This document shows positions 1 through 38,689 of a stretch of 38,689 nt of DNA, one piece after another (the first letter of the stretch is position 1; every line of letters starts with the position of its first letter). The stretch is from Catajapyx aquilonaris. Its lineage: Eukaryota. A model generated the notes under the pieces. That model was not told where the DNA came from. It searched no databases and was given only the letters and a program-made list of their open reading frames with translations. Location of the stretch: assembly GCA_000934665.2 (NCBI GenBank), contig JYFJ02003697.1, positions 1 through 38,689 on the forward strand. Direction: 5' to 3'. The position numbers and the translations under genes are program-made.

Positions 1-1
1 C

Positions 2-874
2 TCAGGGGGCAGCATCAAGACAGAGTGGGGCCAGTGCAAGGAGGAGGAGGAGGTCACGGTGGAGGAGGAAGGCCCGCAAGGAATTATTGGCGGTTGGGTG
101 AGGATGCCCACTGAGATTTTCAGATAATTTGTGGTGATTCAAAATTACGTGCATGATTTGAAGTCACATAATTTCCCTTTGATAATAATGGTAGTTAAGG
201 ATGGAGAGTCACATGAACACATCACAGTTTTGTTGAAATGGCTGGTTAAAGCCATTTAATCAGAAATGTAGCGGTGATGACATCTCTGAACAGCAGTAAC
301 AATATATTTTAACCCCCAAAAAATTGGTCTCATTGCTTATTGAAGTCATCAATGCATCATCGCTGATCAAATCGCTCACATGGTAAATTCGAGTTAAATC
401 TGATATTAATTAAATATTGTTAGTTACGCAGTAACATGATTCCCCCGTGTCATGGCAGAGTCAAGACTTGGAAGCCAGAAACATCAGTGAAATTGCTGCT
501 CTCTTGAGTGGTTCAGACACTGAAGATGCCAGTTTGGTGAATGCAGGTATGATAATGATGCTTATTCATTTATTACTGAAGGCCTTGGACCGAAGCAGGT
601 TGGCATAGTGGATAAGGCGCCCGACTGCTAATCGGGAGGTCCTGGGTTCGAATCCCGGGGCCGGCAACTCTGACCGTGGTTTTCTGGGGTTTCCCACGCC
701 CCTTCCAGGAAAATTCCAGAGTTGCTTCCGTAATTAATAGGCCACAGCAGCTTCCTTCCATCCCTATCCTATCCCAAAGAGCACAGTAAAATGAAAAGCA
801 AAGAGTTCCAGGCAAAACAAACTTCCCGCCTAAAGAGCCGATGGCTGATAACGGGGTATGAATTATTATTATAA

Positions 875-934
<60 letters not shown>

Positions 935-3900
935 ACTAAATATGGAACCTCGAGGATATTTACTGTATTTTATACAAGGTATTAAAGTTCGTCACAAACA
1001 AAACTTCCAACTTTCTGCATTCTTAACATGAAAAAGTTTCTGGAACTGCATTGCCTTGTGGCCTCTACTTTTATTTATTCTCTAAATTATTTGAAGTAGT
1101 ACAGTACTCTGCCATTGCATTTTCACAGGTAGAGAAGCAGCCTCCACATCTGGAAATCCTCAAGAATCTTGCGGACTCTCCACACTTGATGGAGGAATCT
1201 TGGAGCAAGAAGAAGAACGTGGAAGCAGAGAAAGTACTTCAGTACGTGTAATATTATTTTTGTTTCAAATGTGTAATATCAAGTAGGGTGGGGAATCTGT
1301 TGGATGGCAGTCGATATTGGGGTGGTCAGCCTCAGTTGTTAAACATGTTTTAATTGCTAGTGTTAACAAATAACATTTGTGGACATGTTCCTGGATGCCT
1401 GCAAGTCACAGATTGAAGATTTCTCGGATCTAGGCGTTCCCCATCATATTCTCAGGATGTACCTCTGAGCTGCAATATTATTTTGTGTCATAGGTGGCTG
1501 CTTCTGAAGTCTCAGACAATCTTACACCAGGTGAGGGTGATGGCCTTCCATCCGCATCAGCTGACCCATCAATTGCACAAGCATGCAGTCCAAGGGGGAG
1601 GATGAGGCCGAGGAAGAAACTAGTTCTTGTAAGTAACATTCTGGCCTTTTCTAATCCACTTGTAATGAGCACATTTTCTGGCAACACTGGGAATCTTGCA
1701 TGGTTATTTAAATATTGAAATAATTACTCTGTTAAACAGTATTATCTCAGTAATTTGCAATTACGTCACAGAAACATTGACAGGTAGTAATGGAAAATTT
1801 TCACACATTTCCCAAAATACAGGTACTTAAAGATAGCTTTTGCATGCATGCGCCAGACAAAATTTAGGCGGTTTTTGGTTATGTCCAACACTTGATCACT
1901 TGATCAACACTATGATCTGGTTAAGTCAATTTAGGCCCCTAGTCTGATGACCCTGGGTAAGCTATCCCGGGGGCAATCACCATGGCAGCATATGTAAAAG
2001 GATAGCAGTAAACAACCAGTTACCCCAGGGGGCAAGCTACCCCGGGTCACCAGACTATATACCTTAGTCCTGAAGGTTCATAATGAGAAATGAAGCCATG
2101 CATTTCTGTCTTCACTAGGGTTACCCAGGTGTCCGGTTTTGAACTGGACATTCAGGTATTTGAGCGATTTGTCCGGGAGAATATTTGAGGAAATACAATT
2201 ATTCAACGAATATGCAAATTTATCACTTGGCTTTCGATATGCTTATAGTGCACACTACTGCATACTGATTAATGAAACTATCCATAAAATGCGAAATTAG
2301 CTCACCGGAAAATTATGCAGGACCAAATAAGAATCAGTAATTATCTTCTGCCATCTCCTCATTGCCAAATATGCCTGGAATGTTATTTACATACAATTAT
2401 CAATCTGTTAAGAAGTTAAGCAGTGAAGAATTAATGAGTGTAATTACACATTCTTGACTAGTGATTTCACATATTTCAGGATCCTGTGCACAAGGACACG
2501 GATGACAGTGGTCAGTCCCTGGCTGATTCCAGTGATTCTGGGGATGAGTATATGCCTCCAAGTTGCTCAAAAGGAAACGGTCGTGCTGCCTTGAAGAGGA
2601 AGAGAAAGAAGAGAAAAGGAAGGGTAGGTGTTGCTAAATGACTGACCATTTCTGATCCTCTTCACTTCATGGAAATGGTAGGACTCAATGAATCTTCCTA
2701 CATTACTTTGGGAGGATTCAATCGTTCTATCGACTAATGTTTGCCATTGCACTAAAAGCCGCTATTAAAAAGTAAGCTTGGTATGGGAAAGAAATTGATG
2801 AGCATTTTTCATAATGCAATGGGAACACATATTTTGTTGGTTCATGTGATGAAAAATTTAGCTTTGATGATTGCAGATTATTCAGAGGGAATTTCGGAAT
2901 GCTAATAAGTTTGACAGTATTATCACGTGGCAAGCCTTTTCGTCCTAAATATTTTTGTCCAACGGGCAAGGATATTTACTAGATCATGCGGACATATTGC
3001 ACTAGATAAGTTACGTTGTCGGGCAGGGCAGGCATTTGGGATGAATCCTAAGTAGAAATGGGGAGGCTTGGTGGCCAAGATGGTAACGTCTCGGGTTGTT
3101 GTGCAGAAAGTCCCAGGTTTTAACCCTACCCAGGAGTTCAATTTGGCCTGCATCAGGAGGGTCTCTGGTGGGTGCCATGGAGTCATATAGCAACCTAACC
3201 TCCAGGGAGACTGCACTTGACCCCTTTACCGACACTGCACTTGCACCTGTGTCTCCTCCCCAATTATTCCTATCCCTACCTCATGTCCTTTCATCCCTGC
3301 ATGGTGACTGAAGAAAATACCGAAAATTGGAAAGAAAAATTGTGGTGTGCCACCCACCTATGAGGGCCTATGGCCGTATCATGGGGTATTACAAATTAAA
3401 AATAAAAATAAAAATAAACAAAATACTATGGAGTAGTCTGATATCTAATCATCTAACCACCACCTGCAATCAGAGTGCTAATCCCACCAAACTATTTTGG
3501 TCGTGGGACAGCCAAAATCATATTGGATAAATGAAGCTGTGAATGTCATGTTGGGTTTCATGTAATTGTATTTAGATAAAAACAGTTGTTTTGAATGCAA
3601 ATTGTATTAGTAGTAATGTCGAATTTAAAAAAAAGGAATACTGGGAAATGCAAGCAGCTGAAAAAAATACTTCAATGAGAACCTCTGGAGACTATCATAA
3701 GGATGGTGCAACTTCAGATGTGGGCATGACAAGGAAGAAGACACCAAGGAAGAGGACAGCAAACAAGACGAAGCCAAGATCGGTCCAGACTCGAGAGGAG
3801 CAGAGGTTGACCGGTCATGCGAAACTTTCACCTGTTGACAGGCCATACCCATGCAGTGATTGTGATATGAGGTGTACTACACAGAGAGGGTTACGAGAAC

Positions 3901-4259
3901 ATTACAGGCATATCCATCTTGGTATGAGGCCTCACTCATGTGACATGTGTGACAAGACATTTACTAGGCCGAGTAATGTGGAAATCCACAGGAGGACTCA
4001 CACTGGAGAAAGGCCATACCAGTGCAAATTGTGCGAAAAGAGTTTTTCTTCAAGTTCTAATTACCAACAGCATGTTAGGATTCACAAAGGATTGCTACTA
4101 TTTCCTTGCACCATTTGCGGCAAAAGATTCCCTGTTTCTAGAAACTTATCTCGCCACATGTTAATTCATGCGGGAGAGAAGCCTTTTAAATGCAATGTTT
4201 GTGGCAAACAGTTCAACGACAAAAGCAACATGTGGAGACATGCAAAACTAAAGCATTAG
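2..4259 (+). CDS. C2H2 zinc-finger protein, copy 1 (5' partial; 5 fingers)
   Basis: Exons <1-97, 459-546, 1129-1241, 1494-1628, 2480-2623, 3636-4259 have GT-AG boundaries and compatible phases (0,1,0,0,0). The last exon has five C-x2-C-x12-H-x3/4-H fingers with TGERP/AGEKP-type linkers. Confidence 0.9.
589..933 (+). mobile_element. tRNA-derived SINE with (ATT)n tail
   Basis: A box TGGCATAGTGG at 601-611, B box GGTTCGAATCCC at 645-656, anticodon-like arm at 620-636. The body resembles the central domain of insect SINEs (...GGTTTCCC...CCAGG...AGGCCAC...CTTCCTTCC). (ATT)n at 862-933. Absent from the paralogous introns. Confidence 0.85.
862..933 (+). repeat. (ATT)n microsatellite (SINE tail)
   Basis: Read directly. 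Confidence 0.95.
1940..2057. mobile_element. MITE with TAGTCTG...CAGACTA termini
   Basis: ~23-bp imperfect TIRs (TAGTCTGATGACCCTGGGTA / TACCCCGGGTCACCAGACTA). Absent at the paralogous site near 8795. Confidence 0.7.
2116..2185 (+). mobile_element. One end of an old hAT-like (Blackjack-type TAGGGTT[A/G]CC) element, shared by copies 1, 2 and 4
   Basis: The terminus TAGGGTTGCCAGGTGTC(C/T)GG also occurs near 8847 and 22443. I did not identify the other end. Confidence 0.4.
3060..3424 (+). mobile_element. Degenerate tRNA-derived SINE with A-rich tail
   Basis: A box TGGCCAAGATGG at 3072-3083, degenerate B box at 3116-3126, A-rich tail at 3392-3424. The 3' part is also present in copy 2 (~10149-10241). 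The site is empty in copies 4 and 5. Confidence 0.7.
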
Positions 4260-6122: not shown

Positions 6123-6225
6123 TCTAAGCGCTATCTGCGATATTAGTTCTTTGCAGTCGCTTACCGGCTGACCCAACAGCTACGCTATTTTCTCCCAATC
6201 CAAGATGGCGCCTTCGTCTCGCTGA
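6123..6225 (+). promoter_or_regulatory. Conserved promoter/5'UTR block with YY1/Pho-type motif CAAGATGGCG (6201-6210), copy 2
   Basis: A ~100-bp non-coding block is highly conserved in all five visible 5' ends. It matches the YY1 consensus and marks the start of a GC/CpG-rich segment. Confidence 0.6.
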
Positions 6226-6391: not shown

Positions 6392-9300
6392 ATGCCCCCC
6401 ACCGAGGAGGAGGAGGAGAGGAAGAAGAAGTGTCCCCTCCACCTGGAGGCCCGCCTGGAAGGGATCGTGTCCCGACTGGTCTCCCTGGAGGAGGACATGG
6501 CTGCCCTGAAGGAGTGGGCCAGGGGCTGCGGAAGGTGTGGGGCTGGACGGGGTGAGTATTTGGGGGCATTAAACACCTCTTCTCTACGTGAGATGTAAAT
6601 GAGGCTCTTCAGTTGCAGACGACAATCCTGGCGACTTACCTTCTGAAGCCATCGCTTCAGGCGGTGCTGGAGACTCAGTTCCTGTGGGCAGCATCAAGAC
6701 TGAGTGGGACCAGTGCAAGGAGGAGGAGGAGGTCACAGTGGAGGAGGAAGGTCCGCAAGGATTTCACGGTTGGGTGAGGATGCCTACTGAAATTGCTTAT
6801 TGGAGAGGTCAGGAGGTCAAGTGAAATGGCAGGATCAAAAATGGAAGGGGTGGGAAACGAGATGCTGCAAATGGGGTGATATTTCTGGAACTAATTGTGT
6901 CCTTTGTAACTACAGATTATTATAATATTTGTAGTGATTCAAAATCACTTGCATCACTTGAAGTCACAGTCTTGCACTTTGATAATAACAGTAGTTATGG
7001 ATGAAGAGTCACATCAACACATCACAGTTTTGTTGAAATGACTGGTTAAAGCCATGTTTACATGTGAGCGATTAGATCAGTGATGTTGCAGCGATGACAT
7101 CTCTGAGGAAAAGTAACAATATATTTTCATCCCATTGGTCTCATTGCTCAGTGAAGTCATCGCTGATCAAATCGCTCACATGTAAACACAGCTTAAATCT
7201 GACGTTAAATATTGATAGTTACGCAGTAACATGTTTCCCCCTTGTCATGGCAGAGTCAAGACTTGGAAGCCAGCGAAGCCAAAATATCCAGAAACATCCG
7301 TGAAATTGCTGCTCTCTTGAGTGGTTCAGACACTGAAGATGCCAGTTTCGTAAATACAGGTATGGATATGATGCTTATTCATTGATTACTGAAGGCCTTG
7401 GTTGCAGACTGTGCAGAATTAAAATCTCGGAAGTAGAAGTGGGTCAATGGGCAGCAGAAATCTCCATCAGAATATAGGTTCTACTGGTTATATGTCGCAG
7501 TATTAGTACTGTACAACCAACAGGGATAGTGTGCATCACATTGGAGCTGTCGATCCATCTAGCAGGGGGGCAGGCACGTGAAGGTCTCCCAATGTCAAGA
7601 TTAATACTATCAATCTCCCCTCAGCCTGAGAGATGATTTTTAATTACTTCAAGGCAGAAGTAGACATGTCTAGTGTAACGCCATGAATACCTTCCTGCCT
7701 TCCGTGCATCGGTCAACCCTGCTCCTTCTCTTCCACTTACCGTGTTTGTGACTGCGACAAGATGTCCATATGATACATGATGAGAATGCAATTGGCAAAC
7801 TTACATGTCCCTTACAATTTTCTCCACTACAGTGGGGTCATATCAACCTGACTGATTTATTTTGGCACAGTCAGCCCTATGGCGAAATACTTCTGCACCT
7901 TGTGACGCACTTGAAATGCCTTGGATAAAATAGTGTAATTATCCTAGAGGTTCCATATTTAGATTAATTGAATGGTAGGATCTGCCCTTTTCGGCGGGCA
8001 CCTTTCCACCACCGTTGATGTCGTTTTATGAGAATGAGATGCCTCTCACCAAATCAAGCAGCCACGATTTCAAGGTGGCCAAATTATTCTGAATTTGGCC
8101 AAGTATTAGAACAAGAGTAAACAATACTTCCAACTCTCTGCATTCTTCACGTCAAAGGTTCTGGAACTGCATTGCTTTGTGGCCTCTACTTTTATTTATT
8201 CTTTAAATTTCTTGAAGTTGTACAATACTGTGTCATTGCATTTTCACAGGTGGAGAAGCAGCCTCCACATCTGGAAATTCTCAAGAATCTCGCGGACTCT
8301 CCACACTTGATGGAGGAAACTTGGAGCAAGAAGGAGACCTTGGAAGCACAGACAGTACTATAGTATCTGAAAACCCTACAGCAGGTGAGGGTGATAGCCT
8401 TTCATCCGCGTTAGCTGACCCATCAATTGCACAAGCAAGCGGTTCAAGCAGAAGGAAGAGGAAGTGGAAGAAACTAGTTCTTGTAAGTAACATTCAGGCA
8501 GAAAAGGGGAGCATTTTCTTATCCACTTGTAATGACCACAATTTTTGGCAACACTGGGAATCTTGCATTCTCCTTTAAATATTGAAATAAGTACTCTGTT
8601 AAAAAGTATTATATCGGTAATTTGCAATAGTGTGACATAAATATTGACAGGTAGTAATAGAAAATTTTTACACATTTCCCAAGATTCTTAAACGTAACTT
8701 TTGCATACAAGCAACACACCAAATTTTGTCGGTCTTTAGTTACTTCCAACACTTGAGCAGCATTTTTAATGCTCTATGATCTGGTGAAGTCAATTTAGTC
8801 CTGCAGATTCATAATGAGACATGAAGGCAGGAATTTTTGTCTTAACTAGGGCTTGCCAGGTGTCCGGTATTTGAGGGATTTGTCCGAGAAGATATTTTTG
8901 AGGAAATACAATGGTTCAATGAATATGCAAAGTTATCGCTTGACTTTCCTTATGCTTACAGTGCACACTACTGGATACTGATAAATGAAACTATCCGTAA
9001 AATGCGAAATTAGCTCACAGAAAATTATGCAGGTCCAAATAAAAATCAGTAATTATCTTCTGCCATCTCCTCATTGCCAAACATGCCTGGAATGTTATTT
9101 AGGTTCAATTATCAATCTGTTAAGAACTTAAGCAGTGAAGAATTATTAATGAGTGTAATTAGGCATTCTTGACCACTGATTTCCTGTATTTCAGGTTCCT
9201 TTGCACAAGGACGCCGAGGACAGTGATCAGTCCCTGGCTGATTTGAATGATTCTGGGGATGAGTATATTCATCCACGTCGCTCAAAAGACAATGGTCGTG

Positions 9301-11108
9301 CTGCCTTGCAGGGAAAGAGAGAGAAAGGTGCTCCCTTGAGGAGGAAGCGAACAGGAAAGGTATGTCTTGCTAAATGACTGACCAATTCAGACCCTCGTCA
9401 CTTCAGGGCAATGGTAGGACTCAAGGAATCTTCCTACATTACTTTGGGAGGATTCAATTGTTATACCTACTAATATTTGCAATTACACTAAAAGCAAATA
9501 TTTAAAAGGGTATTGGGGGGAAAAACTGATGACCATTGGTGATCATGCAATGGGAACACTTCATATTTTGTTGGTCCATGTAATGAAACCCCCTAGCTTG
9601 CCAAAATACACTGTACTCCCTATTATACGTGCTAATGAATGAACGAGTGTTCCCGGACATTCAAAAAAGACGGATAATGCGAAAACGGTCCTAGATGCAC
9701 TAAAAACGAGCTATTCACTGGTTTTTAATGTACTACTATACTATATCGCTCAAAAACATAGAGACGATTTTGCATTTGATTCAATTGCAGGCTGCACGTG
9801 AGTCAAATGCAAAATCGTCTCTAAGTTCTTGAGCGATATAGTACATCGTGTATGCTTTTTTAACCCCATATCCGCCCGGGCTGGTTTCCAAAGACATAAG
9901 ATGCCAAATTTTAAAAGACGAATATACGTATCAATACTGGCTTGGAAAGGGAGAGCAAAATTTTACCAGGGCACTCACCAAATGTACCAGAATCATATAA
10001 ATTCAACACATATTGGCTGAATCAGGGATGGAAAAAGAACCGCTTCTTTGGGCGGTAAGCGGTTCTTTTTCTATCCCTGCACATGGAAAAAAGAAGCGCT
10101 TCTTGGAAGGAAGCGGTACTTTTTCCATCTCTGGGCTGAATCAATTTCTGAAAGAAAAATGGTGGTGTTCCAACCCCCTGTGAGGGCCCATGGTCCTATC
10201 ACAGGGTATTAAGAAATAATACAAATAAAAAATAAATAAAATACTAAGGCATAGTGTGATATCTCATCATCTAACCACCACCAGCACGCAGAGTGCTAAT
10301 CCCACAGCACCACCAAACTACATATTTTGGTCATGGCACAGCTAAAATCATATGGGATAAATAAAGCTGTGAATGTCGTATCGGGTTCCATGTAATTGTT
10401 TTTATTTGATTAGATAAAAATGACTCACAGTCAGTTGTTTTGAATGCATATTTTATTTGTAGTAATGGTAAATTTTCTTTAAAGGAAAATTCCGAAATCC
10501 AATCAGCTGGAACAGAAACTTCAATGAGAATCTCCGGAGACTTTCATAAGGATGGTGCAACTTCAGATGTGGGCATGGCAAGGAATCTGACACCAAGGAA
10601 GAAGACAGCTAACAAGAAAAAGCCAGGATCAGTCCAGACTCGAGAGAAGCGGAGGTTGACTAGTAATGAAAAACTTTCATCTGATGACAAGCCGTACCCA
10701 TGCAGTGATTGTGATAAGACGTATATTACAAAGAAGGGGTTACGAGGACATTACAGTAATATCCATCTTGGTGTGAGGCCTCATTCATGTGACGTGTGTA
10801 ACAAGACATACACTACGAAGAGACTCATGGAAATTCACAGGAGGACTCACACTGGAGAAAAGCCATACCAGTGCAAAGTCTGCAAAAGTAGCTTTTTTAC
10901 ACATTCTGGATACAGCAGGCATGTTTGGCGTCACAAAGGACTGAAACCATTTGTATGCACCATTTGTGGCAGTAGATTTGCGTTTACACATAACTACCAA
11001 AGACATATGTTGGTTCATTCAGGGGAAAAGCCATTTAAATGTGACTTTTGTGGGACACAGTTCACCCAAAAAGGAAGCATGCGGAAGCATATGAAATTAA
11101 TGCATTAG
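6392..11108 (+). CDS. C2H2 zinc-finger protein, copy 2 (5 fingers, ~482 aa)
   Basis: Exons 6392-6551 (in-frame upstream ATG at 6353 also possible), 6613-6773, 7254-7359, 8250-8482 (fused exons 4+5), 9195-9359, 10485-11108. The frame is open through all junctions. Confidence 0.9.
7050..7193. mobile_element. Ancestral Harbinger-like MITE in intron 2 (remnants in all six copies)
   Basis: TIRs AGC..TGTTTACATGTGAGCG / CGCTCACATGTAAACACAGCT flanked by TAA on both sides. Homologs near 250-394, 14304-14467, 19179-19341, 30329-30503 and from 38504. Confidence 0.7.
9741..9841. mobile_element. Hairpin MITE with TA flanks
   Basis: ~43-bp inverted arms CTATATCGCTCAA.AAC.TAGAGACGATTTTGCATTTGA with TA on each side. 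Confidence 0.75.
10023..10133. mobile_element. hAT-type MITE
   Basis: TIRs CAGGGATGGAAAAAG / CTTTTTCCATCTCTG and an exact 8-bp target duplication GGCTGAAT (10015-10022, 10134-10141). Confidence 0.88.
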
Positions 11109-12469: not shown

Positions 12470-12571
12470 CTAAGCGCTATCTGCGATATTAGTTCTTTAC
12501 AGTCGCTCACCGGCTGACCCCACAGCTACGCTATTTTCTCCCAATCCAAGATGGCGCCTTCGTCTCGCTGA
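12470..12571 (+). promoter_or_regulatory. Conserved promoter block, copy 3 (CAAGATGGCG 12547-12556)
   Basis: Near-identical to 6123-6225. Confidence 0.6.
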
Positions 12572-12733
12572 AATTGAGCGTCTTTTTCAGAGAATTTCTA
12601 GTTTTTGGGTCGGGTTGTGTCCGGGTTGAGGGTAGGACCAGGTCGGATCGAGGCAGAGGGTCTGTCCTTCGTGCCCAGAGGACTAGAGGAACATTCCTTG
12701 CCCCAAGTGGACCACCAGTCGAGGAAGAAGGAG

Positions 12734-15700: not shown

Positions 15701-17296
15701 CCAGACCACCCTAAACCAGAGGAGGGTGAGATCCTTCCACCCCCATCAGCTGACCCATCAAGTGCACAAGCAAGCGGTCCAAGCCGGAGGATGAGGACGA
15801 GGAAGAAACAAGTTCTCGTAAGTAACATTCTGCCAGAAAAGGGGAGCATATTCTTATCCACTTGTAACGACCACATTTTTTTGGCAACGATGGGAATCTT
15901 GCATTCTTCTTCAAATATTAAAATAAGTACTCTGTTATACAGTATTATCTCAGTAATTTGAAATTACGTCACAGAAATATTGACAGGTAGCAATTCCAAA
16001 TTTGTGCACTTTTCTCAAGATACGTAAACATAGCTTTTGCATACAAGCGACATGCAATATTTTGTCGGTTTTTAGTTATTTCCAACACTTGAGCATCATT
16101 TTTAATGCTGTCTGATCTGGTGAAGTCCATTTAGTCCTGAAGATTCATAATGAGCCAGGAAGGCAGGGATTTCTGTCAGTGGCGTAGCCTGCCGCAGATA
16201 TCAAGGGGTGCGTATGAGGCGCTCGAACATGAGGAAGTGGTGCTTCATGTATGTCGGGTAGCACCGGCTCCTGGGAAATTTGTCTGGCCGAAGAAGAGCC
16301 AGGATAGTTTGTTAATCATTGTTGACAGAATTGTTGACAACAATGAATAACAAACTAACTGGTCTCTTCTCCTGCCAGATTAATTTTCCGCGAGCCGGTG
16401 CAACCCGGGTTTAGTCATTTCTGCATTACATGCTATCGCACCCTGTAATTCCCTTGTTAGTACTGTAGTATCTCATCATCTAACCACCAGCATGCACCTG
16501 CAGCACCACCAAACTATTTTGGTCATGGCACAGCCGATATCATATGGCATGAATAAAGAGCTGTGTATGTCACATTGTGTTTCATGTAATTTTTTATTTG
16601 ATTAGATCAAAATGACTCAGTTGTTTTGAATGCATATTTTATTTGTAGTAATGTTGATTTCTTTTTAAAAAGGAAAACTCCGAAATGCAAGCAGCTGAAA
16701 AAAATACTTCAAAGAGAACATCGGGAGACTTTCATAAGGATGGTGCAACTTCAGATCCGGGCTTGACAAGGAATCCGACACCAAGGAAGAGGACAGCAAA
16801 CAAGAAGAAGCCAGATTCAGTCCAGACTCAAGAGAAGCAGACGTTGACTGGTCATGCGAAACATGCATCGGATGATAGGCCATACCCATGCAGTGATTGT
16901 GATAAGACTTATACGACAAGGAATGGGTTACATTTGCATTACAAGGATGTCCATCTTGGTGTTAAGCCTTACTCATGTGACTTGTGTAACAAGAAATTTG
17001 CTGGGAAAACTCACATGGATATTCACAGGAGGAGTCACACGGGAGAAAAACCATTCCATTGCGAAGTGTGCGGAAAGAGTTTTTTATCTAGTTCTAATTA
17101 CCAACAGCACGTTTGGCTACACAAAGGATTGAAACCATTCGGATGCACCATTTGTGGCAAAAGTTTCGCTTTTTCGGGACACTTTCAGAGGCACATGTTG
17201 GTGCACTCAGGCGAGAAGCCTTTTAAATGCGATTTGTGTGGACAACAGTTCAACCGAAAAGAACACATGCAAAAACATGTGGAACTAAAGCATTAG
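12734..17296 (+). CDS. C2H2 zinc-finger protein, copy 3 (5 fingers, ~429-461 aa)
   Basis: Exons 12734-12872, 12929-13095, 14527-14638, [candidate extra exon 14821-14916], 15303-15415, 15683-15817, 16673-17296. No exon 6 homolog is present; the frame is preserved because exon 6 is phase 0-0. Confidence 0.87.
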
Positions 17297-21277: not shown

Positions 21278-21313
<36 letters not shown>

Positions 21314-22260: not shown

Positions 22261-22320
<60 letters not shown>

Positions 22321-25300: not shown

Positions 25301-26771
25301 GTGTAGCATGAAAGCGCCTTTTCCAGTGCAACCTGCAAAGCTAAAAACCCGTCAACCAGGTTCAACCCAATGCATTTGCCTTGCATTTGCCAGTCCGCAC
25401 CACTCAGTATGAACACAAAGTAGGATGTGATGTCACGCCGTACGGCCGTAATAAATAAATTGATTAACTGCCGTATGTCTCCTTGTTTTATGAAACCAGC
25501 TCGGGTTGTCGCCACCTACGAGTTTTCCCCGCCCCCTAGCTTGACCCGTGACTGAAACGCCCTGTATAGATACTGCTCGCACCACCTGGGAGTAATGGGG
25601 CACCTGGATCAGGGTGTGACAAGCTGCACAAACCAGGCTAATTTACATCATATTAATGATAACTATTAATAAAAAATTACCCAGCATTGATTGATTGATT
25701 GATTTTTTTTTTTTTTTTTGTGCAAGAGCCACACAGGCTATACTATGATAAACATAATTATGTTACATTGTCAGGCATGGCAGGCATTTGGAATGAATAC
25801 TAAGTAGTATCTAATCATCTGACCACCAGCACGCAGAGTGCTAAACGCTAATCCCACACCACCACCGAACTATTTTGATCATGGCACAGCTTAAATCATA
25901 ATAGGATTTAAGCTGTGCCATGATCAAAATATGTTATGTGATAAATAAAGCTGTGAATGTCGCGTTGGGTTTCGTGTAATTGTTTTTATTTGATTAGATT
26001 TAAAAAAGTCAGTTGTTTTTGAATGTGTATTTTATTTGTAAGTAATGGTGAATTTTTTAAAAGGAAAACAACGAAATGCAAGCAGTGGAAAAAAATACTT
26101 CAATGGGAACTGCTGGAGACTCTCATAAGGATGGTGCAACTTCAGATCTGGGCATGACAAGGAACCTGACGCCAAGGAAGATGACAGCAAACAAGAAGAA
26201 GCCAGGATCAGTCCAGACTCGAGAGAAGCAGAGGTTGACCGGTCATGCGAAACTTGCATCTGATGATAGACCTTACCCATGCAGTGATTGTGATAAGAGG
26301 TATACTACAAAGTGGGGGTTACAAATGCATTGCAAGGATGTCCATCTTGGTGTTAAGCCTTACTCATGTGACATCTGTGATAGGAAATTTGCTAGGAAGT
26401 CTGGCATGGTTGATCACAGGAGGAGTCACACAGGAGAAAGGCCATTCCAGTGTGAATGGTGCGAAAAATGTTTTTCTTCAAGTTCTAACTACAACGATCA
26501 TGTTCGGGTTCACAAAGGATTGAAACCATTCCATTGCACCATTTGTGGCAAAAGATTTGGTCAGTCAGGAAACTTACACCGGCACATGTTAATGCACTCA
26601 GGTGAGAAGCCTTTTCAATGTAGCACTTGTGGGAAAAAATTTGGTCGGTCAGGAAACTTACATCAGCACATGTTAATTCACTCAGGTGAGAAGCCTTTTG
26701 AATGCAATTTGTGTGGCAAACAGTTCAACCAAAAAGAACACATGCGGAGACATGCGGAACGAAAGCATTAG
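18752..26771 (+). CDS. C2H2 zinc-finger protein, copy 4 (6 fingers, ~507 aa)
   Basis: Exons 18752-18902, 18976-19151, 19716-19821, 21410-21522, 21797-21925, 24420-24560, 26064-26771. All boundaries are GT-AG; the total is 1524 nt with an open frame. Confidence 0.9.
19345..19665 (+). mobile_element. TTAA-targeting non-autonomous DNA element (Kolobok-like GG...CC termini), copy 4 intron 2
   Basis: Begins TTAA-GGTGACACAATA. The ortholog in copy 5 ends TACTGCGTCGCC-TTAA. Absent from copies 1-3. Confidence 0.6.
19832..20462. mobile_element. Tc1/mariner-pogo (Tigger-like) non-autonomous element, copy 4 intron 3
   Basis: TIRs (C/G)AGTAAAACTTCT.TAAGT and a TA target duplication. The empty site GATATATTACTGA is in copy 3 (~14643). 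Confidence 0.88.
20902..21359 (+). mobile_element. tRNA-derived SINE with compound (AAT)n/(ATT)n tail
   Basis: A box-like TGGCGCCGCGG, B box GGTTCGATCCC, microsatellite tail at ~21243-21359. Same family as 22009, 28798 and 36868. Absent in copy 5 intron 3. Confidence 0.88.
22009..22320 (+). mobile_element. 5'-truncated SINE (same family as 20902) with (ATT)n tail at 22249-22320
   Basis: Aligns from TTCATCTCGTGCAGAG onward to the SINE at 20902. Confidence 0.85.
22587..23950. mobile_element. 1.36-kb non-autonomous DNA transposon with ~290-bp TIRs (Academ-like TAG...CTA ends)
   Basis: TIRs 22587-22879 and 23667-23950 are nearly identical, with a 3-bp ATA TSD (22584-22586, 23951-23953). The empty site TGCATACTGATTAATG is in copy 1. 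The superfamily call is inferred from termini and TSD length. Confidence 0.88.
24124..24365. mobile_element. Small TIR element with AATT TSD (Sola-like GAG...CTC ends)
   Basis: GAGGAAAAACGGC / GCCGTTCTTCCTC inverted match and AATT on both sides. The empty site GAAGAATTAATGAG is in copy 1. Confidence 0.68.
25034..25564. mobile_element. Fold-back Tc1/mariner-type MITE (left end truncated), copy 4 intron 6
   Basis: The whole element is an imperfect palindrome. The right end reads TGAAACGCCCTG-TA. Orthologous to 34205-34785. Confidence 0.85.
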
Positions 26772-29743: not shown

Positions 29744-30506
29744 AATTGAGCGTCTTTTTCAGAGAATTTTCTGTTTTTGGGACGTGTAGTGTCCGGGTTG
29801 AGGGTATAGCCGGGTCGGATCGAAGCAGAGGGTCTGCCCTTCGTGCCCAGAGGACTAGAGGAACAATCCTTGCCCCCCCAAGCGGACCACCAGTCGAGGA
29901 AGGACATGCCCCCCACCGCCGAGGAGAGGAACCCTCCTCCCCTCCTGGAGGCCCGCCTGGAAGGGATCGTGTCCCGACTGGTCTCCCTGGAGGAGGACAT
30001 GGCTGCCCTGAGGGAGTGGGCCAGGGGCTGCGGAGGGTGTGGGGCTGGACGGGGTGGGTTGCTAGGGGGGACCACCCTTAGAATGATGTAAACACTCTCT
30101 GGGATGTGCTTCTTTCTCCTCTTCAGCTGCAGGCCAAGGCCATCCAGGCCACCCTCCTCCTGAAGGCCTCTCTCCTTCAGGCGGGGCTGGTGGAGACTCG
30201 GTCGCTGCTGTGGGGAGCATCAAGACAGAGTGGGGCCAGTGCAAGGAGGAGGAGGAGGTCACGGTGGAGGAGGAAGGCCCGCAAGGAATTATTGGCGGTT
30301 GGGTGAGGATGCCTGGTGAAATTGTTTAGAGCCACGTTTATATGGGAACGATTTGTTCAGCAATGTTGCTGCTACAACAGAAATGAGCAAAAGTAACAAT
30401 AGAGCTAACAATATATTTTGACCCCAAACAATTGGTCTCATTCCTCAGCGTTGTCATCGCTGCAACATCGCTGATCAAATCACTCACGCATGTATACACC
30501 GCTTAA

Positions 30507-30976
30507 CCCTTAACTACGTAGGTGGAGCCTGAGAAGCTCCAAGCACTATTTAAATGCATATAACTTTTTCATGGAATTTTATTTTCCCCTGTTCTTCCGT
30601 GACTTTGTCAGAAAAACCTTCCTAAGCATGAAAAGGAAAGAAAAAATTTTTAGTCCCTATTCTTTGGTTTAAAAAAATTCGTAACGAGGAACAGGTCCCT
30701 CCTGGAACCGCTCAGGCTCTATATCTCAGGTGAAACCTGAGCGGCTCAAACACGTGATGTAACCTTTTAATTAAAAAAATTTCCCAGTCAGAATATGCTG
30801 ACTCAGCGTGTGATTTTTACGTTTTCGGAAGCCTAATGATCTGAACTGCACTTTCTGTATGTGAAAAGTCCAATATAACAATTTAGTTGATAAGCAGAAA
30901 TTTAAATATACCGTTGGAGCCTCTCAGGCTCCACCTACGTAGTTAAAGGTGTTTCACCCACCTACGTAGTTAAGGG
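30507..30976. mobile_element. piggyBac-like non-autonomous element
   Basis: TTAA-CCCTTAACTACGTAGGTGG ... CCACCTACGTAGTTAAGGG-CTAA, with the right end duplicated (30931-30949 and 30958-30976). Absent from copy 4. Confidence 0.8.
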
Positions 30977-30980
30977 CTAA

Positions 30981-31340
30981 TGTGGCGCAATAAAGTGGGC
31001 TCTACGCACAGTCGATCCAACTCTGACTCTCTCCCACTCGAAGGCATCGGACACCCTTTCCAGACATACGTCTGCGGTTCAATGTCTGACGTCCTATGTT
31101 TGATGTTCGAAAAGTCAATTTGTATATCATGGCAGCAGAAATCGCATGAAAATCTGACACATTTTTGTGGACGTACGTCCACAATTGTAATGCAATCATG
31201 TGGAGTATGGGATCATTGTAAAGGCCAAACCTTTGCGCAGGTGCCCTATTTCGTGGTTTTGCAGATTAAGGCTGCGTTTCGCCACAAAAAAATAAAGTCC
31301 CTCAAAAATGCGCCTACCGTATTCTTGCTACTGCGTCGCC
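30981..31340 (+). mobile_element. Kolobok-like TTAA element, ortholog of 19345-19665
   Basis: Colinear with the copy 4 element; ends GTCGCC-TTAA. Confidence 0.65.
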
Positions 31341-31517
31341 TTAAGGCTGATATTAATTATTGTTATTTGGAGAGTAAGATGTTTCCCCCTTGTCATGGCA
31401 GAGTCAAGACTTGGAAGCCAACGAAGCCATAATATCCAGAAACATCAGTGAAATTGCTGCTCTCTTGAGTGGTGCTGACATAGAAGATGCCAATTTGGCA
31501 AATGCAGGTATGATATA

Positions 31518-32239
31518 GAGTTAAACTTCTATAAGTTGAATCTCCATGGGACTGGAACAAAACTTCCAGTTATAGAAGATTTGAGTTAGAGATGTTTGGA
31601 ATTTTTAAAGCACATAACTCTATAAGGAAGCCTACGTTTATGTCCAGTGACAAAAGGTGTTCAAAACTTTAAACTAACTGACTGTCACTATCACATTTAC
31701 AATGTTCCTCTTTGTTTTGTTGTAAAAGAAATCTCTGTGATGGACATTTGCCTACTCTTACATTCAAGGATTCAATTGTCTCAACAGAGTCAAACACTTC
31801 TTTCGGTACGTCTGTTAGACAGAGATCAGAAAATTGAGCCTTTCTGTACATGTGGCCTACTCTCTACCCTTCGGCTGGGAAATGAGACAATTTTTCGTAC
31901 TCGCCAACATGAAATTTGGACTTAGTGAGACTGAAAATGCATTGATATCCCATAGGAAGGCCCCGCCTGCACTTCGAGTTATAGAAATTCGAGTTAGGGA
32001 AGTTTATTTCCTATTCTTTTACTTTGTGACCAACCAAGCTCATCATTTTCTTCGACTTATAGGGTATGTTTTTGGTCCCTCTCCAGGAAGCTGGGGAAGG
32101 GTCGCTGAGGAGAGGTGGAAGCCGGCCGCCTGCTTCGACCTCTCCTCAGTGCCCCTTCCCCAGCTTCCTGGAGAGGGACCAAAAACACACCCATAGAGAA
32201 CTTCAACTTAGGGAAGTTCGACCTATAGAAGTTTTACTG
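31518..32239. mobile_element. Tigger-like element, ortholog of 19832-20462, with nested hairpin MITE
   Basis: Same insertion site as in copy 4 (10 nt into intron 3), same TIRs and TA flanks. Confidence 0.88.
32062..32192. mobile_element. Near-perfect hairpin MITE (Tourist/Harbinger-like GGGT.TGTTT ends)
   Basis: ~64-bp arms with few mismatches and a 3-bp ATA TSD. The empty site GACTTATAGAGAAC is in copy 4. Confidence 0.9.
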
Positions 32240-33472
32240 TATTACTGAAGGCTTTGGTTGTAGACTGTGCAGAATTTAAATCTCAGAAGTAGAAATGGGG
32301 CAATGGGCAGCAGAAATCTCCATCAGAATATTGGTCTAATGTTGCATCATGGTTGAACTTTACAACCAACAGGTATTGCGTGTGTCACATTGGAGCTGTC
32401 CATCCATCTAGCACGTGTAAGGTCTACCCATATCAAAAGTAATACTATCCATCTCCATTCAGTCTGATCTGATGCTCCTTTATTCCTTCAAGACGGAAGC
32501 AGAGGAGTCTAGTGTGACGCCATGAAAACCCAGGGCCACTTGTATGTGTTGAAGATGGAGAATAATTGTAGCCAACTTAATTTTTTTCTTGTATTAGGAC
32601 GAGTGTGAATAAACCTTCAAACTTTCTGCATTCTTTACGTGAAAGTCTCTGGAACTGAATTGCTTTGTGGCCTCTACTTTTATTTATGCTTGAAATGGGG
32701 CGTAATGAAAATTATTATTATTATTATTTATTATCATTATTCTTGAAATTATTTGAAGATGTACAGTACTATGCCATTGCATTTTCACAGGTTGAGAAGC
32801 AGCCTCCACATCTGGATTTCCTCAAGAATCTTCCAGACTCTCCACACTTGATGGAGGAAACTCTGAGCAGGAAGAAGAACTCGGAAGCAGAGATAATACT
32901 TTAGTACGTTTGCGAAATATTATTTTTGTTTCAAATGGATAATGGCAAGTATGGTGAGAAATCTGTTGGATGGCAATCGATATTGCGGTGGTCAGCTGCA
33001 GCATTTAATCATGTTCATTTCATTAAATGTTAGTGTTAACAAATAACATGTGATGTCATGCGAACATGTTCCTGGAGGCCTGCACGCCATAGATTGAAGA
33101 TTTCTCAGATCTACGCCCTCCCCGTCACATTCTTATGATTCACCTCTGAGCTGCAATATTATTCTATGTCGTAGGTCTCTGCTTCTGAAGACTCAGACAA
33201 CCCTAAACCATGTGAGGGTGACAGACTTCCACCCCCATCAGCTGACCCATCTATTGCACAAGCAAGCGGTCCAAGCAGGAGGATGAGGACGAGGAAGAAA
33301 CAAGTGCTGGTAAGTAACATTCTGGCAGAGGGGAGCGTCCACTTGTAATGAGCACATTTTCTGGCAACACTGGGAATATTGCTTGCTTCTTGAAATATTG
33401 AAATATGTAGTCTGTTATACAGTACTGTCATGGGGAGGCGGAGTCGTAAGCACCCACTATATCTCAAGCGTC

Positions 33473-33948
33473 TCTCAAGCGTTTTCGAGATACAGGGGTC
33501 AAAAGGTCAAGGATGGACAACTTTATGAAGGCCCTGGGGAAGCTATCATTAGTGCTATCGGCGAGATTTTTGGGATCTAGAGGTTTCTTGGGATGGGGAA
33601 TACAGTGGCATAACCGAAAATCATGAATTATGCACATGAAGGGTACTTCTCAGGGAAGGGGGTGGGAGGTGGGGGAACAAAAATCACTATAAACAAAGTA
33701 TTTTCTACTCCTTAAATGACTATAAACAAAGTATTTTTGTCCCCCCACCTCCCACCCCCTTCCCTGAGAAGTACCCTTCATGTGCATAATTCATGATTTT
33801 TGGTTATGCCACTGTATTCTCCATCCCAAGAAACCTCTAGATCCCAAAAATCTCGCCGATAGCACTAATGATAGCTTCCCCAGGGCCTTCATAGAGTTGT
33901 CCATTCTTGACCTTTTGACCCCTAGCTGTATCTCGAAAACGCTTGAGA
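33473..33948. repeat. Large inverted repeat (~212-bp arms, 48-bp spacer) of transposon-like sequence
   Basis: 33473-33684 is the reverse complement of 33733-33948 with few differences. The centre contains ACTATAAACAAAGTATTTT twice. Confidence 0.92.
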
Positions 33949-34204
33949 TCGAGGATTTCTCCAGAAGGGTGTTGTTCTTCTGGCTGATAAGGAACCCGGA
34001 AAAAAAATATTTGACCTTGAACTTCGAGGGACACTTCGAGAGGTTCCCTTGTAAGAGTAGGACTAGTGAAGAAGTCATACATAATTATTGGACCCTCACA
34101 CACCGTGTCCAAATTGTATGGACATTTACTTACAAGGAAATTTACTGGAAGCTGTTTTTTTTCTTCCCTTAGACTGTTTCACCCTAAGCAGATGCCCTAT
34201 TATA

Positions 34205-34785
34205 CACGGTGTTTCAGAGTCACGGGTCAAGCGCGCGTGAGGGGGTGGGGAAAAATCTTAGGTGGCGACTACCCGAGCTGGTTTTATAAAACAAGGAGAA
34301 ATCCGGCAGTTAATCTATTTATTTATTACGGCCGTAAGGCGTGACATCACATCCTACTGAGTGGTGCGGACTGGCAAATGCAGTGGTTTGAACCTGGTTG
34401 AATGGGTGTTTAGCTTTGCATCGTGCACTGAAAAAGGCGGTCTGATGCTACACCGGCAGGATACTGAACACACTACTGTATAGTAGTACACTACTTTGTA
34501 CAGTACCCTACCGGTGTACCATGGAAGCGCCTTTTTCAGTGCAACCCGCAAAGCTAAAAACCCGTCAACCAGGTTCAACCCAATGCATTTGCCTTGCATT
34601 TGCCAGTCCGCAGGGGTCAATTCGAACAGAAAGTAGGATGTGACATCACGCCATATGGCCGATTGCCGATGCCGATTGATTATTACCGTATTTCTCATTG
34701 TTTTATGAAACCAGCTCGGGTAGTCGCCACCTACGATTTTTCCCCGCCCTCTCCCGCGTGCTTGACCCGTGACTGAAACGCCCTG
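34205..34785. mobile_element. Fold-back Tc1/mariner-type MITE, copy 5
   Basis: TA-CACGGTGTTTCAG ... CTGAAACGCCCTG-TA; palindromic along its whole length. Confidence 0.88.
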
Positions 34786-35231
34786 TATAGATACTGCTCG
34801 CACCACATGGGAGCAATGGAGCACCTGGATAAGGGTGTGACAAGCTGCACAAACCAGGCTAATTTGCATCATATTAATGATAACTATTAATAAAAAATTA
34901 CACAGCATTGATTGATTTTTTTTATTTTTTTTGGTGCAAGAGCCACACAGGCTATACTATGATAAACATATGCCACATTGTCAGGCATGGCAGGCATTTG
35001 GTATGAATACTAATTAGTATCTAATCATCTGACCACCAGCATGCAGAGTGCTAATCCCACACCACCACCGAACTATTTTGATCATGGCACAGCTTAATCA
35101 TATGGGATAAATGAAGCTGTGAATGTCGCGTTGGGTTTCGTGTAATTGTTTTTATTTGATTAGATTTAAAAAAGTCAGATGTTTTTGAATGCGTATTTTA
35201 TTTGTAAGTAATGGTGAATTTTTTTTGAAAG

Positions 35232-36023
35232 GAAAACTACGAAATGGAAGCAGTGGAAAAAAATACTTCAATGAGAACTGCTGGAGACTTTCCTAAGGAT
35301 GGCGCAACTTCAGATGTGGGCACGACAAGGAATCTGACACCTAGGAAGATGACGGCAAACAAGAAGAAGCCAGGATCAGTCCAGACTCATGAGAAGCAGA
35401 GGTTGACCGGTCATGCGAAACTTGCATCTGATGATAGACCTTACCCATGCAGTGATTGTGATAAGACGTATACTACAAAGACTGGGTTACTTTTGCATTA
35501 CAAGAATGTCCACCTTGGTATTAAGCCTTACTCATGTGACTTGTGTAACAAGAAATTTGCTGCGAAGACTCACATGGTTGATCACAGGAGGAATCACACA
35601 GGAGAAAGGCCATTCCAGTGCGAATGGTGCGAAAAATGTTTTCCTTCAAGGTCTCATTACCACCACCATGTTCGGGTTCACAAAGGATTGAAACCATTTC
35701 ACTGCACCATTTGTGGCAAAAGATTTGGTCGGTCAGGAAACTTACACTGTCACATGTTAATTCACTCAGGTGAGAAGCCTTTTGAATGTAGCACTTGTGG
35801 GAAAAGATTTGTTCAGTCAGGAAACTTACACAAGCACATGTTAATTCACTCAGATGGGAAGCCTTTTGAATGTACCACTTGTGGCAAAAGATTTGGTCAG
35901 GCAGGACACTTACACCGCCACATGTTAATTCACTCAGGTGAGAAGCTTTTCGAATGCAACTTGTGTGGCAAACAGTTCACCCGAAAAGCCGGCATGCGGA
36001 CACATGTGCAACTAATGCATTAG
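35232..36023 (+). CDS. Intact 7-finger C2H2 terminal exon of copy 5
   Basis: Open frame with seven canonical fingers and an internal ATG at 35244. Confidence 0.75.
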   Translation, partial: ENYEMEAVEKNTSMRTAGDFPKDGATSDVGTTRNLTPRKMTANKKKPGSVQTHEKQRLTGHAKLASDDRPYPCSDCDKTYTTKTGLLLHYKNVHLGIKPYSCDLCNKKFAAKTHMVDHRRNHTGERPFQCEWCEKCFPSRSHYHHHVRVHKGLKPFHCTICGKRFGRSGNLHCHMLIHSGEKPFECSTCGKRFVQSGNLHKHMLIHSDGKPFECTTCGKRFGQAGHLHRHMLIHSGEKLFECNLCGKQFTRKAGMRTHVQLMH

Positions 36024-37158: not shown

Positions 37159-37603
37159 GGAGATTTGGGTGGAATTTTCATCCCAGTTCTATATTTATTG
37201 CTGACTTTGGCAGTACCAGTGTTGGCATTGGTACTGCTAATAAGCTAGCAGTAATAACTAGCAGTGGGATGATAATTCCACCTATTGCCTCTAATTCATA
37301 GTAGTACTGTACGTCTGTACCTAGACCGGGTAGAGGAAGCCTGGCGCAGACTATTTTGTAATATCTGCAAAATCCTGTGAATAAGTGCCATGAAATAAAA
37401 TCACATGTGTTGTAAATGTGTTGATGGCCTCCATATCATTCGTTGAAATCGGATTTGGAATAATCAGCCAGCCTAATTTTTTTTAAAGGCCTGCAACTAG
37501 TGAAGGATGTCGCCATTGCTCAACTTCATATTGTGAAGACGTCAAAGAAAAGAATAATTAAAAGGGACTTGAATTGTTTATTGTAAATCGAATCAAACAA
37601 TCC

Positions 37604-37706
37604 ACTAAGCGCTATCTGCGATATTAGTTCTTTACAGTCGCTTACCGGCTGACCCCACAGCTACGCTATTTTCTCCCAATCCAAGATGGCGCTTTCGTCT
37701 CGCTGA
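37604..37706 (+). promoter_or_regulatory. Conserved promoter block, copy 6 (CAAGATGGCG 37682-37691)
   Basis: Homologous to 6123-6225. Confidence 0.6.
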
Positions 37707-37870
37707 AATTGAGCGTCTTTTTGAGAGAATTTCCTCATTTTGGGTCGGGTTGTGTCCGGGTTGAGGGTAGAACCGGGTCGGATCGAAGCAGAGGGTCTGT
37801 CTTCCTTGCCCAGAGGACTAGAGGAACGAGCCCTGCTCCCCAAGGGGACCCCCAGTCGAGGAAGAAGGAG

Positions 37871-38226
37871 ATGTCCCCCACCGAGGAGAACCCTCCCCTC
37901 CTGGAGGCCCGCCTGGAAGGGATCGTGTCCCGACTGGTCTCCCTGGAGGAGGACATGGCTGCCCTGAAGGAGTGGGCCAGGGGCTGCAGGAGGTGTGGGG
38001 CTGGACGGGGTGAGTATTTGGGGCCATTAAACACCTCTACTTGACATGTAAATGAGGCTCTTCAGTTGCAGACGACAATCCAGGCGACTTACCTTCTGAA
38101 GCCATTGCTCCAGGAAATGCTGGAGACTCAGTTCCTGTGGGCAGCATCAAGATTGAGTGGGACCAGTGCAAGGAGGAGGAGGAGGTCGCTGTGGAGGATG
38201 AAGGCCCGCAAGGAATTGGCGTTTGG
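37871..38226 (+). CDS. ZNF paralog copy 6, exons 1-2 (3' partial)
   Basis: Exons 37871-38009 and 38066-38226 are homologous to copies 2 and 3 and in frame. Intron 2 runs off the window. Confidence 0.82.
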
Positions 38227-38689
38227 GTGAGGATGCCTACTGGAATTGCTGCGGTCAGGAGGTCAAATGAAATGGCAGGGTCAAAAATGAAACGGGGGTG
38301 AAACGTGATGCTGCAAATGGGGTCATATTTCTGAAACTAATTGTGTCCTTTGTAACTATGTGTACACAGTTTATAAGAAAATTTGTGGTGATTCAAATTG
38401 ACATGCATCATCTGAAATCACAGGTTTTCCCTTTGATAAGAATGGTAGTTAGGGATGAAGAGTCACATGAACACATCTCAGTTATGTTGAAATGGCTGGT
38501 TAAAGCCACGTTTACATTCGAGAGTGATTTGATCAGTGATGAGATCACTGAGCAAAAGTAACAACAGAAGTAACAATATATTTTCCCCCCAAACAATGGG
38601 GAACTAGCCTTGGTCTGGGATTTGGGATTTTTGTTCATAACTAGCTAGCCCATGCCCGTAAACATACATTCCATCACTCTGTTGCATCA

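What the first reader, a model, noticed from the sequence alone, without database searches (positions are those of the whole stretch)
1..38689. Candidate lineage-specific effector + diversifying zinc-finger array system (KRAB/ZAD/FiNZ analog)
Seen: six tandem paralogs pair an almost invariant, separately encoded N-terminal module with a single terminal exon of fingers. Finger number (5,5,5,6,7) and contact residues vary strongly, and the array sits in a TE-saturated locus. Established: KRAB-ZNF clusters in tetrapods and FiNZ-ZNF clusters in cyprinid fish have this architecture and are implicated in TE recognition and silencing; insect ZAD-ZNFs expand in a similar way. Inference: this may be an independent, possibly undescribed family using a different effector. 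No function can be shown from sequence alone.
Basis: partly seen in the sequence, partly recalled or inferred. Interest (0 to 1): 0.82.

Follow-up and report, generated by a model that had tools for sequence, protein, structure and literature searches.

The report
Zinc-finger array with homogenised coiled-coil head
A row of six related DNA-binding zinc-finger genes in an unidentified animal shares a short helical front end with no known relative, probably a handle for the proteins to bundle together, and its near-identity between copies is best explained by DNA copying among them rather than by a conserved silencing job.

Summary
The array is real: six tandem units (two cut by the window ends), five finger exons with 5,5,5,6,7 C2H2 fingers and five copies of a 46-53 aa first exon. 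The genes have 6-7 coding exons, not two; the 7-finger copy has a premature stop. Base-contacting codons evolve fast (omega 2.9; p 5e-7 against 1, but 0.054 if they get their own synonymous rate). The head has no convincing homolog and is no KRAB, ZAD or DUF3669 by Pfam. It is a heptad helix with an RhxxhE trimer-type motif, ending in CxxC. Its 'invariance' is weak evidence for a conserved effector: synonymous sites are frozen too (0.14 times the finger-exon rate, p 2e-4), intron 1 is homogenised within subtypes and 5' ends are mosaic, which points to gene conversion. Best reading: a lineage-restricted zinc-finger subfamily with a self-association head, working like DUF3669/ZAD/SCAN rather than KRAB. 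TE targeting and repression are untested; 37% of the window is inserted DNA. No genome, RNA or oligomer model was available. Unchecked scan notes report similar coiled-coil-headed clusters on at least seven other pieces of this genome.

The parts
1..4259 (+). Unit 1, 5'-truncated gene: E2 to 97, E3 459-546, E4a 1129-1241, E4b 1494-1628, E5 2480-2623, E6 3636-4259 (5 fingers)
   Evidence: GT-AG model, open frame
6392..11108 (+). Unit 2 (482 aa): E1 6392-6551 (second in-frame ATG at 6353), E2 6613-6773, E3 7254-7359, fused E4 8250-8482, E5 9195-9359, E6 10485-11108 (5 fingers)
12734..17296 (+). Unit 3 (428 aa): E1 12734-12872, E2 12932-13095, E3 14527-14638, E4a 15303-15415, E4b 15683-15817, no E5, E6 16673-17296 (5 fingers)
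18752..26771 (+). Unit 4 (507 aa): E1 18752-18902, E2 18976-19151, E3 19716-19821, E4a 21410-21522, E4b 21797-21925, E5 24420-24560, E6 26064-26771 (6 fingers)
   Evidence: 84-bp finger duplication
29906..36023 (+). Unit 5: E1 29906-30053, E2 30127-30302, E3 31402-31507, E4a 32791-32903 with premature TGA at 32793-32795, E4b 33175-33309, no E5, E6 35232-36023 (7 fingers); probable pseudogene or dependent on exon skipping
   Evidence: 84-bp x3 finger repeat
37871..38226 (+). Unit 6, 3'-truncated: E1 37871-38009, E2 38066-38226
12764..12872 (+). Head module core (36 codons; example from unit 3; copies start at 6443, 18794, 29945, 37901): heptad helix with RhxxhE-type motif, ending W-x-x-x-C-x-x-C
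12470..12590 (+). Conserved promoter/leader block around a CCAAGATGGCG (YY1/Pho-like, recalled) motif at 12546; copies at 6200, 18549, 29718 (one mismatch), 37681
   Evidence: 109-117 of 120 identical between pairs
18759..18982 (+). 224-nt exact match to unit 5 (29910-30133) over exon 1 and all of intron 1: candidate conversion tract
7..108 (+). 102-nt exact match of unit 1 exon 2 to unit 4 (19061-19162): candidate conversion tract or crossover mosaic
22587..23950 (.). Largest insertion with long terminal inverted repeats (231-nt arms, 97%), one of 32 unit-specific insertions
589..935 (+). SINE-like insertion: tRNA-like head (595-666) and ATT tail

Best explanation
A lineage-restricted, tandemly duplicating family of C2H2 transcription factors. 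Each protein has a 36-residue N-terminal parallel coiled coil that lets copies self-associate, more likely as trimers than dimers, then a low-complexity linker with a SUMO-type IKTE site and basic clusters, then 5-7 fingers. The fingers' base-contacting residues diverge fast, so paralogs read different DNA. Gene conversion among the GC-rich 5' cassettes (promoter, exon 1, intron 1, exon 2) keeps the heads near-identical. The heads would therefore stay cross-compatible, and paralogs could form mixed oligomers that combine DNA specificities or bridge sites. Shown: layout, heptad pattern, fast contact residues, DNA-level homogenisation. Inferred: splicing, oligomerisation and its state, conversion as the cause, mixed oligomers, any target.
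For: Heptad a/d positions hydrophobic 9 of 9; 30 of 20,000 residue shuffles reach that. AlphaFold2 gives one helix, residues 8-43, pLDDT 95-98 in the core. Best PDB sequence matches are GCN4 leucine-zipper constructs, weakly (E 0.024). RLVSLE fits RhxxhE in 5 of 5 copies, a motif enriched in homotrimers (10.64898/2026.03.09.710472, passages) and present in DUF3669, which makes zinc-finger homo- and heterotrimers (10.1101/2025.03.01.640934, parts 1-2 of 4). Contact omega 2.9 against 0.56 for the finger framework (p 4e-16); 0 of 200 random sets of 20 other non-structural finger codons reach 2.9. Head synonymous rate is 0.14 of the finger-exon rate (p 1.8e-4), GC3 0.81 against 0.43. Intron 1: U4-U5 73/73, U2-U3 54/56, U2-U6 53/56. 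In all 10 pairs among U2-U6 the longest exact run lies in exon 1, reached by at most 8 of 2000 permutations. U1 exon 2 matches U4 at 91/91 while the finger-exon tree pairs U1 with U2; U6 has a U4/U5-like upstream region but a U2/U3-type intron 1. Coding-exon length differences are all multiples of 3; leader lengths are not.
Against: No oligomer model or experiment. RhxxhE arises in 822 of 20,000 shuffles, and many proteins with it form dimers. Positive selection drops to p 0.054 when contact codons get their own synonymous rate; pairwise counting gave only dN/dS 1.17. Only 4-5 sequences. The leader just upstream of the core is only 84-90% identical, so the tract is patchy; selection on synonymous sites or assembly polishing could mimic conversion. 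The run permutation test alone cannot separate conversion from purifying selection. No transcript evidence.
Confidence: 0.55

Rival explanations
1. KRAB/FiNZ-like system: the head docks a shared co-repressor, and the fingers chase transposons.
For: Separate N-terminal exon, single finger exon, tandem cluster, finger gain, a broken copy and fast contact residues. The head is short and acidic, as FiNZ is described. Wells et al. report a ZNF-retroelement correlation across animals. Heptad pattern and CxxC are kept in 5 of 5 copies, and the core is 95-98% identical across two subtypes whose intron 1 aligns at only 55%.
Against: Head invariance extends to synonymous sites; its omega is not distinguishable from 1 (p 0.47). 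A continuous heptad stripe suits helix-helix packing. Dipteran ZAD-ZNFs have such clusters without apparent TE targeting, and ZF271-like expansion did not correlate with repeat content in Hemiptera (PMC6444547, passages). No binding, expression or repression data.
Confidence: 0.22
2. The head is a zinc-clasped dimer: two helices pair and their CxxC motifs share one zinc ion (as in the Rad50 hook; comparison recalled).
For: CxxC is invariant in 5 of 5 copies while residues between the cysteines vary; it caps the helix end. Four cysteines from two chains fit one zinc.
Against: The RhxxhE motif leans to a trimer; no model with zinc was obtained; the invariance may be DNA-driven.
Confidence: 0.12
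3. The head is a captured piece of a retrotransposon ORF1 coiled coil, a second DUF3669-type co-option.
For: DUF3669 came from L1 ORF1p and carries RhxxhE motifs; the head is a separate exon with very different GC3.
Against: No DUF3669 or TE hit in Pfam, no relative among 1.84 billion representatives; the head has 4-5 heptads, DUF3669 ten.
Confidence: 0.08
4. The head's sameness is of no functional weight: passive conversion of a promoter cassette, or assembly/polishing that overwrote paralog differences.
For: Synonymous and intronic homogenisation; omega of the head not distinguishable from 1.
Against: The few differences in the core follow subtypes; the heptad pattern is non-random; frame is kept in all coding exons; indels fall before, not in, the helix.
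Confidence: 0.1

Closest known systems
DUF3669-KRAB zinc-finger proteins (ZNF746, ZNF777 group; 10.1101/2025.03.01.640934, parts 1-2 of 4 read)
   Same: N-terminal heptad coiled coil with RhxxhE motif on clustered C2H2 proteins; homo- and heterotrimers proposed here, shown there.
   Different: No DUF3669 or KRAB Pfam hit; 4-5 heptads against ten; ends in CxxC; DKZFPs are few, old and conserved in amniotes, this family is duplicating with fast contact residues.
FiNZ-ZNF genes of cyprinids (Wells et al. 2023, PMC10547256, passages read)
   Same: Short acidic N-terminal module without known homolog on its own exon; tandem expansion; contact residues with omega above 1.
   Different: FiNZ is 28 aa in a two-exon layout with about 700 zebrafish genes and knock-down evidence of TE derepression; here 6-7 exons, six copies seen, no function shown. 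No direct sequence comparison with FiNZ was possible.
KRAB zinc-finger genes of tetrapods
   Same: Clustered paralogs, N-terminal module encoded apart from one finger exon, finger gain, pseudogenes.
   Different: No KRAB hit; head is a heptad coiled coil; long multi-exon linker; repression untested.
ZAD-, SCAN- and BTB-headed C2H2 proteins (PMC8084297, passages read)
   Same: N-terminal self-association domain plus finger cluster, tandem duplication.
   Different: ZAD has two cysteine pairs, a globular N-terminal part and an antiparallel dimer; this head has one CxxC at the C-terminal end of a plain helix; no zf-AD, SCAN or BTB hit.
ZF271-like/APEZ expansions of Hemiptera (PMC6444547, passages read)
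   Same: Lineage-specific tandem clusters of 4-8 C2H2 genes with differing exon structure and pseudogenes in an insect.
   Different: Those proteins carry no domain besides the fingers.

Membership tests
C2H2 tandem zinc-finger transcription factors | Tandem C-x2-C-x12-H-x3/4-H fingers with TGEKP-type linkers in one open frame | tested here: met
KRAB-ZNF | KRAB domain at the N-terminus | tested here: not met
   0 Pfam families for the exon 1, 2, 3, 4a, 4b, 5 and spacer peptides scanned (one to three copies of each)
KRAB-ZNF | Repression through KAP1/TRIM28 and TE binding | not testable with these tools
   no binding, expression or reporter data
ZAD-ZNF | zf-AD domain with two cysteine pairs | tested here: not met
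   no Pfam hit; one CxxC in the core; single-helix model
DUF3669-ZNF | DUF3669 sequence homology | tested here: not met
   no Pfam hit for three exon-1 peptides (filters drop matches weaker than about E 0.1)
DUF3669-ZNF | Heptad repeat with RhxxhE motif | tested here: met
   5 of 5 copies; motif by chance in 822 of 20,000 shuffles
DUF3669-ZNF | Trimer formation | not tested
FiNZ-ZNF | 28-aa FiNZ sequence | tested here: inconclusive
   no direct comparison made; homolog searches returned no fish protein for the head, and I do not know whether the Pfam copy holds a FiNZ model
FiNZ-ZNF | Two-exon layout (module exon, finger exon) | tested here: not met
   6-7 coding exons
FiNZ/KRAB-type arms-race ZNFs | Positive selection on base-contacting residues | tested here: inconclusive
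   omega 2.9, p 5e-7 with shared synonymous rate; omega 2.6, p 0.054 with its own

The most novel reading that the evidence does not exclude
This animal has independently built a large zinc-finger system on an unnamed coiled-coil/CxxC head. Gene conversion keeps heads identical within each cluster and lets them drift between clusters, so each cluster forms its own set of mixed trimers with fast-evolving DNA specificity, and these recognise and silence transposons.
Probability: 0.15. Interest if true: 0.8.

Novelty: new variant of a known kind. Interest (0 to 1): 0.45.

Why it matters
Wells et al. note dozens of uncharacterised ZNF families across animals. A 36-residue head is easy to synthesise and test, so it offers a direct way to ask whether invertebrate expansions rest on oligomerisation or on co-repressor docking. 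The general caution also matters: in tandem clusters a near-invariant first exon can come from gene conversion and should not be read as a conserved effector until synonymous sites are checked.

Tried and rejected
No whole genome is held, so copy number, genome-wide linkage and TE background could not be measured. Head homologs: Pfam none; word search of proteins of 94-2000 aa gave 2 hits among 8000 scored candidates, P0001 and P0002, secreted-looking proteins without fingers, one named Bdellovibrionales; HMMER over 1.84 billion representatives gave 1 hit, a 2792-aa repetitive coiled coil; ESM Atlas gave only scores under 0.9. All rejected as heptad look-alikes. Proteins under 94 aa were covered only. 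Spacer plus finger 1: 2 hits among 1854 candidates, both through the finger. Fingers 1-3: 354 of 396 candidates passed; the 120 listed were generic ZNFs at 48% identity or less, with no lineage signal; none of the 125 fetched proteins beyond P0001-P0003 matches the head profile. No oligomer model was obtained. RNA structure as the cause of synonymous invariance: rejected, z 0.4-1.5 in 3 of 3 cores folded. A CpG island as the cause: exon 1 CpG o/e is 0.36, below the window's 0.55. Alternative and antisense frames over exon 1 (3 scanned) and 13 other long ORFs, mostly in insertions: no Pfam hit at cut-off, one weak E 0.069. Rfam: one tRNA-like head above cut-off; miRNA hits are below cut-off and sit on hairpin repeats. 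No fold search was run, since a single helix is uninformative. Literature searches (listings only) found no description of this head; the library lacks most subscription papers, and I opened no supplements, including Wells et al.'s ZNF tables.
Full report
1. What is there. Six-frame scanning finds five clusters of C2H2 fingers on the + strand with 5, 5, 5, 6 and 7 fingers. Self-BLAST shows six collinear units. I built GT-AG models for all six. U2-U5 lie wholly in the window; U1 begins in exon 2 and U6 ends after exon 2. The genes have six or seven coding exons. Three give open proteins of 482, 428 and 507 aa. U5 has a TGA at 32793-32795. U3 and U5 lack exon 5, and U2 has exons 4a and 4b fused. 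Length differences among homologous coding exons are all multiples of three, while the leaders measure 192, 188, 203, 188 and 190 nt (exon 1 is in frame by construction). The organism is unidentified. The sequence is animal-like; earlier scan notes call it an arthropod, which I could not check (one search gave no lineage signal).

2. The head. Exon 1 encodes 46-53 aa with a 36-residue core. Three exon-1 peptides and samples of exons 2-5 hit no Pfam family, so KRAB, ZAD, SCAN, BTB and DUF3669 are not detected. Large searches gave only heptad look-alikes: 2 hits among 8000 scored candidates, 1 among 1.84 billion representatives, Atlas scores under 0.9. AlphaFold2 gives one helix, residues 8-43. 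The a/d positions are hydrophobic at 9 of 9, reached by 30 of 20,000 shuffles. The best PDB sequence matches are GCN4 zipper constructs, weakly. All five copies carry RLVSLE, which fits the RhxxhE motif, and end in CxxC. The motif is enriched in homotrimers but also occurs in dimers (passages of 10.64898/2026.03.09.710472), and arises in 4% of shuffles. DUF3669, a trimeric coiled coil from L1 ORF1p, carries it and lets its zinc-finger proteins form homo- and heterotrimers (10.1101/2025.03.01.640934, parts 1-2 of 4). An earlier scan note pointed me to that paper. The oligomer could not be modelled, so its state is inference.

3. Why the head is invariant. But the core is frozen at synonymous sites too: pS 0.034 against 0.20-0.30 in the finger exon. 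In a codon model on U2-U5 its synonymous rate is 0.14 of the finger exon's (p 1.8e-4); its omega, 0.51, cannot be told from 1 (p 0.47); GC3 is 0.81 against 0.43. Intron 1 is identical in U4 and U5 (73/73) and 53-54/56 among U2, U3 and U6, while units align at 83-91% overall. In all ten pairs among U2-U6 the longest exact run lies in exon 1 (68-224 nt; at most 8 of 2000 permutations); of the five pairs with U1, two are significant, both in exon 2, and three are not. The 5' ends are mosaic: U1 exon 2 matches U4 at 91/91 though the finger-exon tree joins U1 with U2 (12 log units over the next topology); U6 is U4/U5-like upstream and U2/U3-like in intron 1. RNA structure and a CpG island do not explain it. 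Gene conversion, probably GC-biased (from general knowledge), fits best. This does not exclude selection: the core stays 95-98% identical across subtypes whose intron 1 aligns at 55%, and selection may keep it similar enough to go on converting. Against a clean tract, the leader is only 84-90% identical, and a polishing artefact is not excluded.

4. The fingers. On fingers 1-4 plus the last finger of U1-U5 (the extra fingers of U4 and U5 left out), omega is 2.9 for the 20 contact codons, 1.4 for other helix codons, 0.56 for the framework and 0.44 for the spacer. Contact differs from framework at p 4e-16, and 0 of 200 random codon sets reach 2.9. Against omega 1, p is 5e-7 with a shared synonymous rate but 0.054 with a separate one; pairwise counting gives 1.17. 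So specificity diversifies for certain; positive selection is likely but not secure with five sequences that recombine. The extra fingers of U4 and U5 are 84-bp tandem duplications.

5. Transposons. Unit-specific insertions of 60 bp or more number 32 and cover 14,309 bp, 37% (DNA shared only by U4 and U5 counted as inserted). Several have long inverted repeats or a tRNA-like head. Thirteen long non-finger ORFs gave no Pfam hit at cut-off. Without the genome there is no background, and insertions in a locus say nothing about targets. Wells et al. report that dipteran ZAD-ZNFs do not appear to target TEs; Panfilio et al. found no link between repeat content and ZF271-like expansion in Hemiptera.

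6. How it probably works. Each gene makes a nuclear DNA-binding protein whose head bundles with other heads. Because conversion keeps heads alike, paralogs could mix, giving multivalent, combinatorial binding while fingers diverge. Any repression may instead come from the linker: an IKTE/IKIE site followed by acidic residues in exon 2 (SUMO-type, recalled) and an IxxLL-like helix in exon 3 (alignments); both are guesses. Confidence 0.55. The KRAB-like reading gets 0.22.

7. Novelty. The layout is a known kind (KRAB, FiNZ, ZAD, SCAN, DUF3669). The head has no name or homolog in the searches above, and four literature searches showed no description. Unchecked scan notes describe coiled-coil-headed ZNF clusters on at least seven other pieces of this genome, one ending in a similar W..CxxC, and two cases of region-limited conversion. 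Look-ups by sequence found no look-alike of this head, so those heads are either distinct or too diverged for the word index; I could not compare them. Verdict: new variant of a known kind, interest 0.45.

Noticed in passing
window 6206-6226, 12552-12572, 18555-18575, 29724-29744, 37687-37707: The ATG inside the YY1-like motif opens a six-codon upstream ORF whose TGA is kept in 5 of 5 copies; it may damp translation or be a by-product of the motif.
   Followed up: no
window 8250-8482: Unit 2 has lost the intron between exons 4a and 4b by an in-frame deletion 15 nt longer than the intron (233 against 248 nt), so an imprecise genomic intron loss.
   Followed up: partly
units 3 and 5, between exon 4b and exon 6: Exon 5 (acidic stretch plus basic cluster, phase 0-0) is missing in U3 and U5, although the finger tree pairs U5 with U4, which has it: two losses or a recombinant.
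   Followed up: no
window 32793-32795: Premature TGA in the 7-finger copy while its finger exon is intact; skipping exons 3 and 4a together (219 nt) would keep the frame.
   Followed up: partly
P0001 residues 101-123 and P0002: Two bacterial-type proteins match the head core closely over a short stretch (87% and 83% over half of the query; E 7e-4 and 4e-3 in 5.8 billion). They lack the motif's Arg, the Trp and CxxC; read as heptad convergence, but the identity is oddly high.
   Followed up: partly
exon 4a, units 1, 3, 4, 5: pS is also very low here (0.05 against pN 0.11): possibly a second homogenised or splice-constrained block.
   Followed up: no
window 19822-20463, 27306-28031, 31508-32240: One insertion family with a 15-bp internal repeat occurs three times, twice right at the exon 3 donor of U4 and U5.
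   Followed up: no
window 20880-21355, 21997-22315, 28785-29102, 36869-37164: Four copies of one SINE-like family (75-86% alike) in different introns and spacers.
   Followed up: no
window 33494-33923 and 22618-23929: Young foldback-type insertions with 97% complementary arms of 191 and 231 nt; the first draws many sub-threshold miRNA hits.
   Followed up: no
intron 1 of units 2, 3, 6 (for example 6607-6618): Two in-frame acceptor AGs 6 nt apart (three in unit 3) could give small splice variants.
   Followed up: no
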